From assembly GCA_029931905.1 (NCBI GenBank), contig JAOZRH010000001.1, positions 19,031 to 83,030 on the forward strand: 64,000 nt of DNA. Direction: 5' to 3'. This document shows positions 1,441 to 6,121 of this stretch, piece after piece. Under the pieces are notes generated by a model. That model was given only the letters and a program-made list of their open reading frames with translations, was not told where the DNA came from and made no database searches. The stretch's first letter is position 1; each line of letters opens with the position of its first letter. Made by a program: the position numbers and the translations under genes. The stretch is from Fidelibacterota bacterium (GTDB taxonomy: Bacteria > Fidelibacterota > Fidelibacteria > Fidelibacterales > Fidelibacteraceae).

Positions 1441-1635
1441 ATGGTATTAGAAGAAGTATAGGGGCGTATTGAGAATGAATTGGAGAATGAGGGTCTAAAT
1501 ACAGAAGATATAGTTGATTATGAAGTTGAAATGGATTTAGGGGAGGTCTGTCATAATCAGGGTATTATAGACACATTTGAAGTAATGATAGATAAGAAGG
1601 ACCGGATAGTAAGGGTTATGATGGAGCTATATTAA
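1441..1635 (+). CDS. possible small acidic protein (64 codons) containing one in-frame TAG
   Basis: ATG at 1441, TAG at codon 7, TAA at 1633-1635 three nt before the helicase ATG. It is missing from the track because of the TAG. Confidence 0.35.
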
Positions 1636-1638
1636 TAT

Positions 1639-4600
1639 ATGTTTTGTTTAATACACAAGAATAAGTTTGATGGTAAGTTAAAGGGTATGGTTCATCAGGT
1701 AATATACGAGAATGATCATACCTTTTTCTTTCCAAGGCACATTAGACGTTATTATGATTATTCTTATATAGATGGTTGGGTAGATCCTAAGTTTAGTATA
1801 GTAAAGCCAAAGGAGTTTAAGTTTACATCTAAGTTAAGGGATGCACAGGTAGATATGAGTGCTGACATATTTGATTCCTTTGCAGAAACAGGATATATTC
1901 ATGGTATTATACAGGCGAGACCGGGAACTGGTAAATGTTTTAAGATTGATACACCTATATTAATGTATGATGGGTCTATTAAGATGGTTCAGGATATTAT
2001 TAATGGTGATCTTGTTATGGGACCGGATAGTAAACCAAGAATTGCATCTGGTGTTAATGTTGGGTATGGTGATATGTATGAAGTAATTCCTGATAAGGGG
2101 GATTCATTTACATGTAATTATGATCATATACTGAGTTTAAAAAGTTCATATCATGATAGTAAACAATATCCATTTGATTCTATAACAAATATATCTATTA
2201 AGGATTATCTTAAGCAGACAAATAGATTTAAAGCTAAGATGAAGTTATGGCGAACTGGTGTTGAGTTTCCTACAGTAGATATTCTGTTTGATCCTTATAT
2301 TATTGGTGCACATTTAGGTGATGGTACTAAGAAAGAAATTTGTTCAATTAGAAATGATTTTAGATTTTATGTAAAAGAACATTTAATAACTGAGAATAAT
2401 GAACGTAATATACCTAACGAATATTTAATTAATGATCGTGAAGTACGGTTACAGTTATTAGCTGGTATTATTGACACTAATGGTAATTTAAGTTCTGATG
2501 GATATGAAGTATTTTGTAAGGATGAACATTTTGCTGATCAGATTTGTTTTTTAAGTAGAAGTCTTGGGTATGCATGTTATAAAAAAGAAAAGGTTATAGG
2601 AACTGAAATCCATTATAAATGTTTTATATCTGGTTATATTAATGAAATTCCTTGTGAATATAAGAAAGCACCAGAATGTAAGCAAATTAAGGATGTATTA
2701 AAAACTGGTTTCGAAGTTAAATATATTGGTAAAGATAATTATTATGGATTTACATTAGATAAAGATCATCTATATTTGATGGGAGATTTCACAGTAACTC
2801 ATAATACAGTATTAGGGATTTATTTAGCACATAAGTTAAATGTTGTTACTTTAATAGTTATAGACAATAAGAAGATTGTTGAGCAGTGGATAGATGAAAT
2901 GCTTAGACATACAGATTTAGAAAGGTCTGACATTGGTACTATTAAGGGTGATGTATTTGATGTAGATGACAAAGTTATTATAGTGAGTACTCCACAGACT
3001 TTGAGCAGCAAATTTAAGAATGCTAATAAAACATTTTATCCTAAGTTCAGGGATATTGGTGTTGGTTTGGTGATATGGGATGAATGTAAGTCTGGTGATA
3101 CAGAATTATTAACGGAACATGGTTGGCAGCGGTTTGACAAATTGGATAAGAGTGTTAAGGTTGCACAATTCAATCATATTACCAGAGAGATTTCTTTTGT
3201 AAAGCCATTACGTTATATTGAGAATGATTATAAAGGTAAGTTGGTTCATCTTAAGAGTAGAAATATTGATGATTTATCAACACCAAATCACGAACAACCA
3301 TTATATCTTAGTGGTAAGTATGAAAAGAGAATAGTAGATAATGTAAAATTTAATTATTATACAAAAATACCTATACATGGAAAAGGTGTAGGGGATTTAG
3401 AGTTCACAGATTACCATAGATTCCTTATTATGTTACAAGCAGATGGTACCATTCAATACGAAACTAAAGATGGGGATCATTATCAAGTATGTTTTACTTT
3501 TAGTAAACAGCGTAAAATTGATAGATTAAAGCAATTAGTTGAGTCATTAGGTTATTCGTGGGGAATTTCCAATGATACTGGTTCTATTAATGAGAATGTT
3601 AAAGACCGTACTCGATTTATGATATATCCAAAAGACAGAATGTATAAGCATTTTAATGAATGGCTTGATATATCAAATATTTCATATGAGTTTGCTAATA
3701 AGTTTATTAATGAACTTGTATTGTGGGATGGTAGTACTAAAGGTGGTAATTTATATTATTCTACTACAGATAGTGGTAATGCAGATATTGTTCAAATAGT
3801 TGCATTATTTGGTGGTTACAAATGTTCACGTGGTATACAGATTGATAATAGGAAAGAAAGTTATAAAGATGTTCATAGGTTTTATTTTTATAAAGATGTG
3901 GATGCTGCTACACAGAGTATAAAAAAGGATTACGTTGATTATGATGGTAAAGTATATTGTGTGACGGTGCCAGATGGTAATATTATTGTAAGACGTAATA
4001 ATAAAGTTTCTATTACTGGTAATTGTCATGTAATAGCGAATGAGTGGGCAGCAGGATCTTTATTATTTAATACCCCTAATTTATTAGGTATGAGTGCAAC
4101 CCCATGGCATGGTAAAGACAAAGAGATTTTAATGTATTCTATATTTGGTGAAGTAGTGACTAAGTATGGAGAGTACGATTTTTCTCCTAAATATAAAATG
4201 GTTGAGTATGATTCTCTTACAGGTGACAAGGATGGTAAGAGGGTGAACTATTTATGGAAGAATAACTTTAATATGGCACGATCAGTATATAATAGGGTTT
4301 TATTAAAGAGTAAGGCGTGGGTTGATATATGTGTAGAGATTATGAAGTACAATATGGAAGCTGATCCTAATAATAGAATGATTGTTATAGTTTTTACAGA
4401 GAAGCAGATAAATGTGTTATATGATGCAGCAATTAAAGCTGGGTTAGAACCTATCAAATTTTATGCAAAGCAACGGGAAGTTGATAAGGATAAAGATAGG
4501 TTATTGATTGCAACAATGGCATATGGTAGTAAGGCATTTGATTATAAGCAATTAAATCGTATGTTATTGGCTATTCCTATATTAGGTAAGAAAGCAATGG

Positions 4601-4791
4601 TACAATCCATAGGGAGGATTTTGCGTGAATGTTCAGGTAAAGTAGATGCTGAAGTTTGGGATTTATATGATATGGGGTCTGGTTACCGGGGATTATTTCT
4701 TAATACTATAGATCAGAAGTTAAGAATTATTAACAATGAGTATGATGATGTAATCATTGAAAGAGGTAGCATAGAACATTTAACGAAATAA
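1639..4791 (+). CDS. SF2 DECH-box DNA/RNA helicase precursor with two inteins (spliced extein about 447 aa)
   Basis: Motif I is ARPGTGK|T, restored after removing intein 1. Motif II is VIWDE|CH, restored after removing intein 2. Motif III is MSATP and motif VI is QSIGRILRE. The 1050 codons contain no in-frame TAG and end in TAA. Confidence 0.9.
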   Translation: MFCLIHKNKFDGKLKGMVHQVIYENDHTFFFPRHIRRYYDYSYIDGWVDPKFSIVKPKEFKFTSKLRDAQVDMSADIFDSFAETGYIHGIIQARPGTGKCFKIDTPILMYDGSIKMVQDIINGDLVMGPDSKPRIASGVNVGYGDMYEVIPDKGDSFTCNYDHILSLKSSYHDSKQYPFDSITNISIKDYLKQTNRFKAKMKLWRTGVEFPTVDILFDPYIIGAHLGDGTKKEICSIRNDFRFYVKEHLITENNERNIPNEYLINDREVRLQLLAGIIDTNGNLSSDGYEVFCKDEHFADQICFLSRSLGYACYKKEKVIGTEIHYKCFISGYINEIPCEYKKAPECKQIKDVLKTGFEVKYIGKDNYYGFTLDKDHLYLMGDFTVTHNTVLGIYLAHKLNVVTLIVIDNKKIVEQWIDEMLRHTDLERSDIGTIKGDVFDVDDKVIIVSTPQTLSSKFKNANKTFYPKFRDIGVGLVIWDECKSGDTELLTEHGWQRFDKLDKSVKVAQFNHITREISFVKPLRYIENDYKGKLVHLKSRNIDDLSTPNHEQPLYLSGKYEKRIVDNVKFNYYTKIPIHGKGVGDLEFTDYHRFLIMLQADGTIQYETKDGDHYQVCFTFSKQRKIDRLKQLVESLGYSWGISNDTGSINENVKDRTRFMIYPKDRMYKHFNEWLDISNISYEFANKFINELVLWDGSTKGGNLYYSTTDSGNADIVQIVALFGGYKCSRGIQIDNRKESYKDVHRFYFYKDVDAATQSIKKDYVDYDGKVYCVTVPDGNIIVRRNNKVSITGNCHVIANEWAAGSLLFNTPNLLGMSATPWHGKDKEILMYSIFGEVVTKYGEYDFSPKYKMVEYDSLTGDKDGKRVNYLWKNNFNMARSVYNRVLLKSKAWVDICVEIMKYNMEADPNNRMIVIVFTEKQINVLYDAAIKAGLEPIKFYAKQREVDKDKDRLLIATMAYGSKAFDYKQLNRMLLAIPILGKKAMVQSIGRILRECSGKVDAEVWDLYDMGSGYRGLFLNTIDQKLRIINNEYDDVIIERGSIEHLTK
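1936..2805 (+). mobile_element. intein 1 (290 aa) inserted in the helicase Walker A/P-loop, with a LAGLIDADG-type homing endonuclease remnant
   Basis: Starts with Cys right after GTGK (CFKIDTPILMYDG). Block B-like TCNYDH is present. LAGLIDADG-like IIGAHLGDGT and LLAGIIDTNGN are present. Ends ...FTVTHN followed by Thr (+1). Confidence 0.85.
3085..4023 (+). mobile_element. intein 2 (313 aa) inserted in helicase motif II (DE|CH), with a LAGLIDADG-type homing endonuclease domain
   Basis: Starts with Cys after VIWDE (CKSGDTELLTEHG). Block B-like STPNHE is present. LAGLIDADG-like FLIMLQADGT and NELVLWDGST are present. Ends ...VSITGN followed by Cys (+1), which regenerates DECH. Confidence 0.8.
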
Positions 4792-4842
4792 GGAATGTCT
4801 TGTCTGTTCAGATTTGAATTAATTATAAAAGATTAACTAACT

Positions 4843-4858
4843 ATTGGTAAATTAAATG
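4843..4858 (+). promoter_or_regulatory. initiation-region motif ATTGGTAAATTAAATG (includes the start codon)
   Basis: The same 16-mer occurs at 24327-24342. Close variants lie at 15949-15965, at 32659-32673, and on the minus strand at 37611-37626. Confidence 0.5.
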
Positions 4859-6121
4859 ATATATTCAAGAGCAGACAAGGTTGAACAATATCTATCCCAT
4901 TATAATATCACTGGGGTAGAAGCTTAGAAGGGCAGTTGGAACACACGTCTTTATCTAACGAACATCCATACCAATAAGCCATATAAATTAGAGATCCAGA
5001 ATCCTCTTTATAATATTTTATCAGGGGAGGATAATCATCATGAGTTTGATCCAAAGTCATTAAATGGTCATAATTATTTATTACGAAATATGATATTTGA
5101 TTATACAGATGTTGGGATGACAGAGTTTATTGCTAATTTTCTTAACACAGAGTATTATAAGCGGTATGGTACATTAGAGCATGAAGCAGGGAAGAAATAG
5201 TCGAGTGAATATTTTTCTTTCTTAGAGATGAAAGATATAGAATTGATTAAAGGTTTAGCCGGTTTCAAGGATAATGTTATTACTGGTGTATATGGTAATT
5301 TCTTTACCATGGATGATGACACATTGAGATTTACATTTAAGCCTACCACACCTATTGTTGAGAATATTAACAAGGTTCATTTTGCCCAATCCTTTATATT
5401 TACCAAGGATGGATGGCAGTATCCCACATATTACATTATATATACTAAAAAAGGATCAACAGATGTTTAGTTTGAGTAGACTAATTTATTAGTTAATTCA
5501 ATTACTAACAATGGATCTGTTGTTGTTAATTTATCACAGTTATTTGGTGATAAGTGGACAGACATTTCATCTGATATGGATACATTATCTGGATTTGGTA
5601 CAGAATGGTTTATTGTGCCATCCTTATTCACATGTGCAATTATGCGGAACACACCTACTGGAATATTACGATACATTCCCATTAATTTTACAAAACAATT
5701 TTTTAATATTACATTTAATAATATGGATATTGAAGCAAAGGCTATAAGGGATGGTGATAGTGGTGAATAGATAAACACTGAACCCAATTTTAATGATAGT
5801 AATGCAGTATTAGAGGTAATTGATAACACTTCGTCGGAATAGACAGAATCAAAGAAGGCTTCCTTTGTATATAAGGATGATCGTATAGTTCCTTGGTCAA
5901 GTATGGAGCATGTTGAATTTTTAGATCAGTTATTAAAGTTGTCAAGTACAGCAGAATATTTTAATGATGTATTATTTTCATTAGAGGATTCGGAGTTTCA
6001 GTTTCCTATATATTTAATTACACCGATAGATAACGAAGTGAGTCATGGACCTTATGGCACTTAGTTTAATGACGATTATATTGACAATGTTGGTGTAGTA
6101 AGCGTGGGTGGTGGCGAATGA
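4856..6121 (+). CDS. hypothetical protein, 421 aa, 7 in-frame TAG
   Basis: ATG at 4856. Track ORFs 5228..5470 and 5576..5770 share the frame and are joined only by TAG. The terminal TGA at 6119-6121 overlaps the next ATG (ATGA). Confidence 0.8.

What the first reader, a model, noticed from the sequence alone, without database searches (positions are those of the whole stretch)
1936..2805. Intein splitting the helicase P-loop (GTGK | T)
The Walker A motif reads ARPGTGK, then Cys, then a 290-aa insert ending THN, then Thr. Excising the insert restores GTGKT. The insert has the intein hallmarks: N-terminal Cys, a TxxH block and a C-terminal HN followed by a nucleophile. It also has two LAGLIDADG-like motifs only about 50 aa apart, which suggests a compact or decaying homing endonuclease.
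Basis: partly seen in the sequence, partly recalled or inferred. Interest (0 to 1): 0.6.

Follow-up and report, generated by a model that had tools for sequence, protein, structure and literature searches.

The report
P-loop intein with decayed homing endonuclease
A self-splicing protein insert (an intein) does interrupt the ATP-binding loop of a phage helicase, but it is an ordinary member of a very common intein family; the modest point of interest is that its homing endonuclease was caught half-deleted.

Summary
Window 1936-2805 encodes a 290-aa class 1 intein (Cys1, Asn61-x-x-His64, His289-Asn290, Thr+1). It sits between the Lys and Thr of the Walker A motif (ARPGTGK|T) of a 1050-aa SF2 helicase precursor (1639-4791).

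Evidence that it is an intein:
- Pfam Hom_end_hint scores 70 bits against a cut-off of 32.
- An AlphaFold model (pLDDT 94) matches PI-SceI (Foldseek E 1e-21).
- Intein-less homologues of 436-443 aa read ARPGxGK[T/S] without interruption.
- The same intein family sits at the same GK|T/S site in thousands of phage and giant-virus ATPases.

Evidence that the endonuclease is decaying:
- A 94%-identical sister helicase carries a 343-aa version of the intein.
- The window's copy has lost 53 aa in frame. This includes a 135-bp deletion between TCAATTA repeats that removes the beta strands and one helix of the first LAGLIDADG half-domain.
- The second catalytic Asp is Asn.

The splicing residues are intact and the exteins are under strong purifying selection, so the intein most likely still splices.

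This "classic" P-loop insertion is well described in the literature. It is a new member of a known kind and of low interest. A second intein splits DE|CH in the same gene, and the phage reads TAG as a sense codon.

The parts
1639..4791 (+). Helicase precursor gene: 1050 codons plus TAA, with no in-frame TAG or TGA. The spliced product would be a 447-aa SF2 DNA helicase.
   Evidence: The in-silico spliced extein matches Pfam ResIII at 3.2e-20 over one continuous stretch and PHROG 16 'DNA helicase' at 1.8e-42.
1639..1935 (+). N-extein (aa 1-99), ending in the first part of Walker A, ARPGTGK.
   Evidence: It aligns with ARPG[YF]GK of the intein-less homologues.
1936..2805 (+). Intein 1: 290 aa, Cys1 ... 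His289-Asn290, of the PI-SceI/VMA type.
   Evidence: Pfam PF05203 70 bits. PDB phmmer: Prp8 intein 3e-12 and PI-SceI 3e-11. AlphaFold pLDDT 94.3, pTM 0.91. Top Foldseek hit PI-SceI 1dfa, E 1.4e-21, TM 0.70.
1936..2253 (+). N-terminal part of the Hint splicing domain (intein aa 1-106). It holds block A (CFKIDTPILMYDGSIKMVQD) and block B (Asn61, His64).
   Evidence: Invariant columns C1, T6, M10-Q19, N61 and H64 in 45 family members. Beta-rich in the model.
2296..2325 (+). LAGLIDADG motif 1 (YIIGAHLGDG). The catalytic Asp129 is retained.
   Evidence: Helix 120-129 in the model.
2344..2350 (+). Deletion scar: a single TCAATTA. The sister allele has two copies 135 bp apart, and the 45 codons between them are missing here.
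   Evidence: The BLAST segments overlap. The repeat sequences were read directly.
2455..2484 (+). LAGLIDADG motif 2 (LLAGIIDTNG). The catalytic position is Asn182 (codon AAT, 2479-2481) instead of Asp.
   Evidence: This position is Asp in P0001, P0003, P0004 and in 47 of the 49 family members whose endonuclease is full length. It aligns with FLAGLIDSDG of PI-SceI.
2698..2805 (+). C-terminal part of the Hint domain (blocks F and G): ...DNYYGFTLDKDHLYLMGDFTVTHN.
   Evidence: Invariant G271, F272, H289 and N290. It aligns with the C-terminus of PI-SceI and of the Prp8 intein.
2806..3084 (+). Middle extein (aa 390-482). It starts with Thr390, which is both the Walker A Thr and the +1 splicing nucleophile, and it ends in Walker B/motif II ...VIWDE.
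3085..4023 (+). Intein 2: 313 aa, Cys1 ... Gly-Asn, followed by Cys+1. It splits DE|CH.
   Evidence: Homologues P0046, P0126 and P0128 carry it at the same site. P0001 and P0122-P0125 lack it and read DE[VA]H. PHROG profiles of intein-bearing RNR and PhoH match it.
4024..4791 (+). C-extein (aa 796-1050), starting Cys-His of DECH. It holds the helicase C-terminal domain and the stop codon.

Best explanation
Window 1936-2805 is a class 1 intein of the PI-SceI/VMA1/Prp8-like family (Pfam Hom_end_hint). It is inserted at the classic P-loop site, between the invariant Lys and the Thr of Walker A, in the SF2 DNA helicase of a TAG-recoded phage from marine sediment and hydrothermal vents.

The whole 1050-aa precursor is translated. 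The proposed splicing steps are inferred from the intact catalytic set, not demonstrated:
- Cys1 makes a thioester with Lys99.
- The Thr+1 hydroxyl attacks that thioester.
- Asn290 cyclises, helped by His289, and releases the intein.
- An O-to-N shift leaves GTGKT.
Until this happens, and until the second intein in DE|CH has also left, the helicase cannot bind or hydrolyse ATP.

At the DNA level the element originally spread by homing, using its LAGLIDADG endonuclease. In this lineage the endonuclease is decaying. A microhomology-mediated 135-bp in-frame deletion removed the beta strands and one helix of its first half-domain. Three further small in-frame deletions occurred, and the second catalytic Asp became Asn. 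The intein is therefore most likely immobile. It is inherited vertically and kept in frame only because the helicase needs it to splice.
For: Intein identity:
- Pfam PF05203 scores 70 bits against a gathering score of 32.1.
- PDB sequence hits are all inteins: Prp8 3e-12 and PI-SceI 3e-11.
- The AlphaFold model has pLDDT 94.3, and the 13 best Foldseek hits are PI-SceI and TliVMA inteins.
- C1, N61, H64, H289 and N290 are invariant in 45 family members and all present here.

Insertion site:
- Intein-less alleles P0122-P0125 (42-46% identical, 97-99% coverage) and P0128 read GK[T/S] contiguously.
- ResIII matches the spliced sequence as one stretch at 3e-20. In the precursor it matches only a fragment at 2.5e-9.

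Same family at the same site elsewhere:
- Helicases of Vibrio, E. coli (Bas95, annotated 'similar to intein') and Klebsiella phages carry it.
- 4478 proteins were found in DnaB, SNF2, UvrD, AAA+, Clp and PhoH-like hosts.
- 73 of the 80 IMG/VR loci show a GK|C...HN|T/S context.

Decay of the endonuclease:
- Sister allele P0001/L004 (exteins 92-97% identical) has a 343-aa intein. The window lacks 45+5+1+2 aa, all in frame.
- TCAATTA repeats flank the 135-bp deletion.
- The model of the full-size allele has strand 137-141, helix 145-156 and strands 160-168 and 171-178, exactly the residues deleted here. The window's model goes from helix 120-129 to the next helix with no strands.
- In the family, all 13 members with 52 or fewer residues between the catalytic positions have lost at least one Asp. 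Only 3 of 49 with 85 or more have done so (Fisher p 7e-11, not corrected for phylogeny).

Splicing is probably retained:
- Extein dN/dS is 0.06-0.23, so the helicase is under purifying selection.
- The sequence is reproduced without any difference in two independent studies.
Against: - Splicing was not and cannot be tested here.
- PF05204 (Hom_end) falls just below its cut-off (20.6 against 21.1 bits). This fits decay, but it also means the endonuclease assignment rests on alignment and on the model.
- dN/dS of the endonuclease remnant is 0.54. That is higher than in the exteins but is not demonstrably 1 (120 codons, and the comparison mixes both lineages). Some constraint may therefore persist, for example on folding that must not disturb splicing, or on a residual function.
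- Motif 1 keeps its Asp and the second half-domain is complete, so a residual DNA-binding or nicking activity is not excluded.
- The family correlation is not phylogenetically independent.
Confidence: 0.87

Rival explanations
1. The 290-aa insert is a compact but still active homing endonuclease intein. The short spacing between the LAGLIDADG motifs would then be a streamlined design rather than decay, and the element would still be mobile.
For: Motif 1 keeps its catalytic Asp129, and the second half-domain has the full helix-strand-strand-helix-strand-strand topology. dN/dS of the remnant is 0.54, not clearly neutral. All deletions are in frame.
Against: The deleted 45 aa are exactly the beta strands and helix of the first half-domain, which are present in the sister allele and in all full-size relatives. 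The second catalytic Asp is Asn. From my own knowledge, Asp-to-Asn changes at the equivalent Asp218 and Asp326 of PI-SceI abolish cleavage. Every family member with comparably short spacing has lost at least one catalytic Asp, and shorter relatives grade down to 151-153-aa mini-inteins. In-frame deletions are expected anyway, because a frameshift would destroy the helicase.
Confidence: 0.08
2. The insert is a dead intein and the helicase gene is a pseudogene or makes a non-functional protein. Either splicing has been lost, or the gene is broken as in the JGI contig L005.
For: A near-identical JGI contig (L005) lacks window 2691-2824. That removes blocks F and G and Thr+1 and shifts the frame. 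Two inteins in one gene double the risk of failure.
Against: The window's intact version is what two independent runs assemble, with zero differences. One X2 contig runs without a difference through the left junction of that deletion, to 2853. All splicing residues are present. There is no stop or frameshift in 1050 codons of a 28% G+C genome. Extein dN/dS is 0.06-0.23 against the sister lineage.
Confidence: 0.04
3. The insert is a native accessory domain of this helicase family, or a non-splicing Hint/BIL-type domain, rather than an excised intein.
For: None beyond the fact that splicing has not been observed.
Against: Homologues of 436-443 aa lack it entirely and have a contiguous P-loop. 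A P-loop cut between Lys and Thr cannot bind nucleotide. The same element occurs at the same dipeptide in unrelated ATPases. It has the complete Cys1 / His-Asn / Thr+1 set, whereas BIL domains typically lack the +1 nucleophile context (my own knowledge).
Confidence: 0.01

Closest known systems
PI-SceI, the Saccharomyces cerevisiae VMA1 intein (PDB 1VDE, 1DFA, 1LWS), and the related TliVMA intein (7QSU)
   Same: It is the best structural match (E 1.4e-21, TM 0.70 on the query) and shares the Pfam family Hom_end_hint. The Cys1 and C-terminal His-Asn, the insertion in an ATPase, and a LAGLIDADG endonuclease nested in the Hint domain are all shared. Motif 2 aligns with FLAGLIDSDG. From my own knowledge, PI-SceI also has Asn rather than Thr in block B.
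   Different: PI-SceI has 454 aa, an extra DNA-recognition region, a complete two-half endonuclease with both catalytic Asp residues, and Cys at +1. The intein here has 290 aa and Thr at +1. Its first half-domain is deleted, its second Asp is Asn, and its host protein and site differ (the Walker A Lys|Thr of an SF2 helicase).
'Classic' P-loop inteins: mycobacteriophage TerL1-a, bacterial DnaB-b, archaeal MCM-a and RFC-a (PMC5050341, PMC4760082)
   Same: The insertion point is identical, between the invariant Walker A Lys and the Thr/Ser that serves as the +1 nucleophile. PMC5050341 calls this the 'classic' P-loop intein insertion. The hosts are replication or packaging ATPases of phages and prokaryotes.
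   Different: The host proteins differ: terminase, DnaB and MCM there, an SF2 ResIII-type helicase here. I did not test whether those particular inteins belong to the same sequence family as this one. DnaB-hosted members of this family do exist (PF03796 hosts).
Helicase inteins of cultured phages: Escherichia phage HelliStehle_Bas95 (Bas95_0045, annotated 'similar to intein'), Vibrio phage 489E54-1, Klebsiella phages MEW1 and JD001
   Same: The intein is homologous (34-40% identity over the aligned N-terminal half of the precursor, intein included) and sits at the same GGGK|C...THN|T site of a ResIII-type helicase.
   Different: Those inteins are about 330-350 aa with a full-length endonuclease and Asp in both motifs. 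Their exteins are only distantly related to this helicase.
P-loop-to-P-loop intein transfer described in Anaeramoeba (PMC10710043)
   Same: One intein clade is found in the Walker A motifs of non-homologous proteins. That is what searches show for this family in phages and giant-virus MAGs.
   Different: That is a eukaryotic genome with intragenomic spread. Here the carriers are viral genomes, and spread was not traced.

Membership tests
Class 1 intein (Hint-domain protein-splicing element) | Nucleophilic Cys/Ser at intein position 1 | tested here: met
   Cys100 of the precursor is intein Cys1. It is invariant in 45 relatives.
Class 1 intein (Hint-domain protein-splicing element) | Block B (T/N)xxH | tested here: met
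   Asn61-Tyr-Asp-His64. N61 and H64 are invariant in the family. His64 aligns with the block B His of the Prp8 intein.
Class 1 intein (Hint-domain protein-splicing element) | C-terminal His-Asn followed by Cys/Ser/Thr at +1 | tested here: met
   The sequence reads ...FTVTHN|T. H289 and N290 are invariant. The +1 residue is Thr or Ser in the 78 related loci where the C-terminal junction was recovered.
Class 1 intein (Hint-domain protein-splicing element) | Hint fold | tested here: met
   PF05203 scores 70 bits against a gathering score of 32.1. The AlphaFold model has pLDDT 94.3. Foldseek hits with E below 1e-3 are inteins, BIL domains and the hedgehog Hint domain only.
Class 1 intein (Hint-domain protein-splicing element) | Insertion interrupts a conserved host motif that is contiguous in intein-less homologues | tested here: met
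   P0122-P0125 and P0128 read ARPGxGK[T/S] or GGGKT without an insert.
Class 1 intein (Hint-domain protein-splicing element) | Autocatalytic excision with ligation of the exteins | not testable with these tools
   This is inferred only, from the intact catalytic residues and from purifying selection on the exteins (dN/dS 0.06-0.23).
PI-SceI/VMA-type intein (Pfam Hom_end_hint PF05203 plus Hom_end PF05204) | Score above the Pfam gathering thresholds | tested here: inconclusive
   PF05203 is met (70 against 32.1 bits). PF05204 is just below its threshold (20.6 against 21.1 bits) and matches only profile positions 1-60 of 110. This fits a truncated endonuclease.
Active double-motif LAGLIDADG homing endonuclease | Two LAGLIDADG helices | tested here: met
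   YIIGAHLGDG forms helix 120-129 and LLAGIIDTNG lies in helix 168-182.
Active double-motif LAGLIDADG homing endonuclease | Acidic catalytic residue at the end of each motif | tested here: not met
   Motif 1 has Asp129. Motif 2 has Asn182 where 47 of 49 full-length relatives and the sister allele have Asp.
Active double-motif LAGLIDADG homing endonuclease | Two half-domains, each with a four-stranded DNA-binding sheet | tested here: not met
   The window model has no strands between helix 120-129 and helix 168-182. The sister allele's model has strands 137-141, 160-168 and 171-178 there. These lie within the 45 residues deleted here.

The most novel reading that the evidence does not exclude
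The two inteins may be more than selfish passengers on their way out. They could be retained as post-translational gates on the two ATPase motifs (Walker A and DExH) of an early replication helicase in a TAG-recoded phage. Helicase activity would then appear only when conditions such as redox state, metal or temperature in vent or sediment hosts permit splicing. This would be conditional protein splicing of the kind shown for mycobacterial DnaB inteins (PMC6195587). The endonuclease-less intein 1, with nine Cys residues, would then be maintained by selection for regulation.
Probability: 0.06. Interest if true: 0.55.

Novelty: new member of a known kind. Interest (0 to 1): 0.22.

Why it matters
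It matters mostly for correct annotation. The gene encodes a 447-aa helicase plus two inteins, not a 1050-aa multidomain protein, and profile searches see the helicase properly only after in-silico splicing.

The set of natural alleles found here is a neat illustration of the homing cycle (invasion, endonuclease decay, possible loss):
- intein-less alleles;
- full-size alleles of 341-344 aa;
- two independently truncated alleles of 290 and 276 aa;
- mini-inteins of 151-153 aa elsewhere in the family.
The deletion breakpoints are mapped to a 7-bp repeat.

The set could also supply a compact P-loop intein pair (full-size and truncated) for comparing splicing rates. It does not change what is known about inteins.

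Tried and rejected
- PHROG and Pfam scans of the ten largest table-11 ORFs elsewhere in the window gave no hit at all. This is explained by TAG recoding, which fragments the genes and by the phage being very divergent. It gave no help in naming the phage.
- NCBIfam gave only sub-threshold hits to intein-bearing models such as XPB, the Rv2578c intein and RNR.
- ARAGORN found no tRNA in the window, so no suppressor tRNA is present there.
Whether the 134-bp deletion variant exists in reads therefore stays open.
- I considered that the lower synonymous divergence of the intein (dS 0.13) than of the N-extein (0.41) means a recent homing or gene-conversion event between the two lineages. There are too few sites to conclude.
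- I considered and rejected a native-domain reading and a pseudogene reading; see the rival explanations.
Full report
**1. What is in the sequence**

The + strand ORF 1639-4791 encodes 1050 aa with no in-frame TAG or TGA. The Walker A motif reads ARPGTGK up to nt 1935. Cys follows at 1936, then a 290-aa stretch ending FTVTHN at 2805, then Thr at 2806. Deleting 1936-2805 gives GTGKT.

A second insert of 313 aa (3085-4023; Cys ... Thr-Gly-Asn, followed by Cys-His) splits the DExH box.

With both inserts removed in silico, the 447-aa product matches Pfam ResIII as one continuous stretch (3.2e-20) and PHROG 16 'DNA helicase' (1.8e-42). In the precursor, ResIII matches only a fragment.

**2. The insert is an intein**

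- Pfam Hom_end_hint (PF05203) matches at 70 bits (gathering score 32.1, E 3.8e-19). Hom_end (PF05204) is just under its threshold at 20.6 against 21.1 bits.
- Against PDB sequences, all nine matches with E below 1e-6 are inteins: Prp8 (3e-12) and PI-SceI/VMA1 (3e-11). Alignments cover the N-terminal block, the second LAGLIDADG motif and the C-terminal ...YYG(F/I)TL...HN.
- An AlphaFold2 model built on 45 family members has mean pLDDT 94.3 and pTM 0.91.
- Foldseek against the PDB returns PI-SceI (E 1.4e-21, TM 0.70), then the TliVMA, Prp8 and PI-PfuI inteins, and further down only inteins, BIL domains and hedgehog Hint domains.
- The catalytic set is complete: Cys1, Asn61-x-x-His64 (block B), His289-Asn290 and Thr+1. 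All of these are invariant in the family alignment.
From my own knowledge this is also the case in PI-SceI.

**3. The site is a true interruption of the P-loop**

A search with the in-silico spliced helicase found four full-length homologues of 436-443 aa (P0122-P0125; 42-46% identity; 97-99% coverage). They read ARPG[YF]GK[TS] without any insert. It also found P0128, which carries only the second intein and reads GGGKT.

**4. The intein belongs to a very large P-loop family**

- tblastn against cultured phages found the same intein at the same GGGK|C...THN|T position in helicases of Vibrio, Escherichia and Klebsiella phages. Phage Bas95 already annotates it as 'similar to intein'.
- A search of the 5.8-billion-protein collection with the intein region alone gave 4478 hits at E up to 1e-5. 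The hosts carry ResIII, DnaB_C, SNF2, UvrD, AAA, Clp, AAA_5 and PIN/KH (PhoH-like) domains.
- Of 80 IMG/VR loci fetched, which are jumbo-size phage contigs and giant-virus MAGs, 73 show a GK|C ... HN|T/S context.
- The literature calls the Lys|Thr position the 'classic' P-loop intein insertion (PMC5050341). It documents intein clustering in P-loops of DnaB, MCM and RFC (PMC4760082). It also describes transfer of one intein clade among the P-loops of non-homologous proteins (PMC10710043).
- An earlier agent of this scan reached the same 'ordinary member of a very common family' verdict for a related case.

**5. The endonuclease is decaying**

- *Sister allele.* The closest relative, P0001 (contig L004, an NCBI MAG), is the same helicase. 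Extein identity is 92-97% at the amino-acid level and 90-95% at the nucleotide level. Its intein is 343 aa, and it has no second intein.
- *Deletions.* Relative to P0001 the window has lost 45, 5, 1 and 2 codons, all in frame. Outgroups have the longer form, so these are deletions in the window's lineage. The outgroups are P0003, P0004 and the distant phage and giant-virus inteins.
- *Mechanism.* The 135-bp deletion lies between two TCAATTA repeats in L004, and one copy remains at window 2344-2350. That is the signature of slippage or microhomology-mediated deletion.
- *Structure.* A second AlphaFold model, of the 343-aa allele (pLDDT 93.5), has strand 137-141, helix 145-156 and strands 160-168 and 171-178 after the first LAGLIDADG helix. 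Residues 137-181 are exactly those missing in the window. The window's model passes from helix 120-129 through a low-confidence loop to helices, with no strands until after the second LAGLIDADG helix. One of the two DNA-binding half-saddles is gone.
- *Catalytic residue.* The catalytic residue of motif 2 is Asn182 (AAT, 2479-2481). The sister allele has Asp there, as do 47 of 49 unique relatives with a full-length endonuclease.
- *Family pattern.* Across 62 unique endonuclease-bearing family members, all 13 with 52 or fewer residues between the catalytic positions have lost at least one Asp. Only 3 of 49 with 85 or more have done so (not corrected for phylogeny). Two relatives are 151-153-aa mini-inteins. 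The window's copy is the least eroded of the short class.
- *Independent events.* In the extein tree the window groups with P0001, P0046 and P0003, and all four carry intein 1 (290, 343, 276 and 344 aa). Truncation therefore happened at least twice independently. P0004, which has intein 1, is sister to the intein-less P0123, so the distribution is patchy as expected for a homing element.

**6. Does it still splice?**

This is inferred, not shown. All splicing residues are intact and every indel is in frame. The exteins evolve under strong purifying selection (dN/dS 0.12, 0.06 and 0.23 for the three extein segments), against 0.45 for the intein and 0.54 for the endonuclease remnant. A helicase whose P-loop stays split cannot work, so a conserved helicase implies a working intein.

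**7. Reliability of the sequence and its context**

- A 17.9-kb Logan contig from a hydrothermal-vent metagenome covers 1600-4850 with zero differences. Two contigs from a marine-sediment metagenome of another study do the same. A third run holds the P0001-like allele.
- One JGI contig (L005) is identical except for a 134-bp deletion (window 2691-2824). That deletion would remove blocks F and G and Thr+1 and shift the frame. Its right edge coincides with a contig break in run X2. I could not test whether it is an assembly artefact or a defective variant.
- The genome reads TAG as sense: long-ORF coverage rises from 60% to 99%, in line with earlier notes. The helicase itself contains no TAG.
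- The intein's G+C (28.2%) equals the window's (28.5%), so it is not a recent arrival from a compositionally different source.

**8. Verdict**

This is a canonical P-loop intein of a very abundant family, with a half-deleted and probably inactive LAGLIDADG endonuclease. It is a new member of a known kind and of low interest. Its modest value lies in the clean natural series of alleles and the mapped deletion.

Noticed in passing
window 3085-4023: A second intein (313 aa, Cys1 ... Thr-Gly-Asn | Cys-His) splits motif II DE|CH of the same helicase. Homologues P0046, P0126 and P0128 carry it at the same site, also ending TGN. The 94%-identical sister P0001 lacks it and reads DEVH, and intein-less alleles read DE[VA]H. 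The penultimate residue is Gly instead of His in all copies seen.
   Followed up: partly
L005 (JGI 3300005264 contig) against window 2691-2824 and 5050-5072: A contig otherwise 100% identical to the window has a 134-bp deletion. It removes the intein's C-terminal splicing blocks, Thr+1 and six more extein codons, shifts the frame and splits the helicase into two called genes. It also has a 23-bp deletion further downstream. This is either an assembly artefact or a defective variant; raw reads could not be examined.
   Followed up: partly
whole window: TAG is almost certainly a sense codon. Stop-to-stop frames of 150 aa or more cover 60% of the window under table 11 and 99% if TAG is read through. 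None of the ten largest table-11 ORFs outside the helicase hits any PHROG or Pfam family.
   Followed up: partly
window 1639-3084 against L004 2161-3765: Synonymous divergence from the sister phage is lower in the intein (dS 0.13; 0.03 in its last 54 codons) than in the N-extein (0.41) and the middle extein (0.23). This could reflect gene conversion or homing between the lineages after they split, or just small numbers.
   Followed up: no
L022/L076 (IMGVR_UViG_3300032268_000688) and L023/L042 (IMGVR_UViG_3300034198_014417): Each of these two viral contigs carries two inteins of this family in the P-loops of two different ATPases (contexts VGTGK|C...|TCSAI and PCGRGK|C...|TVMAL). This is consistent with P-loop-to-P-loop spread within one genome.
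   Followed up: no
P0039 and P0047 (781-aa helicases): In these relatives the residue after GFGK is Ser, not Cys (GFGK|SAPAGTKVIMYDGSIK...). The intein may therefore use Ser1, or start a few residues later than in the rest of the family.
   Followed up: no
L048, L064, L065, L037, L039: A few members of the same intein family are not in a GK|T/S context: GNPLAR|C...HN|TTAGR, GNSLAQ|C...|TTAGR and RRQGK|C...|TYRGG. The family is therefore not strictly confined to Walker A sites.
   Followed up: no
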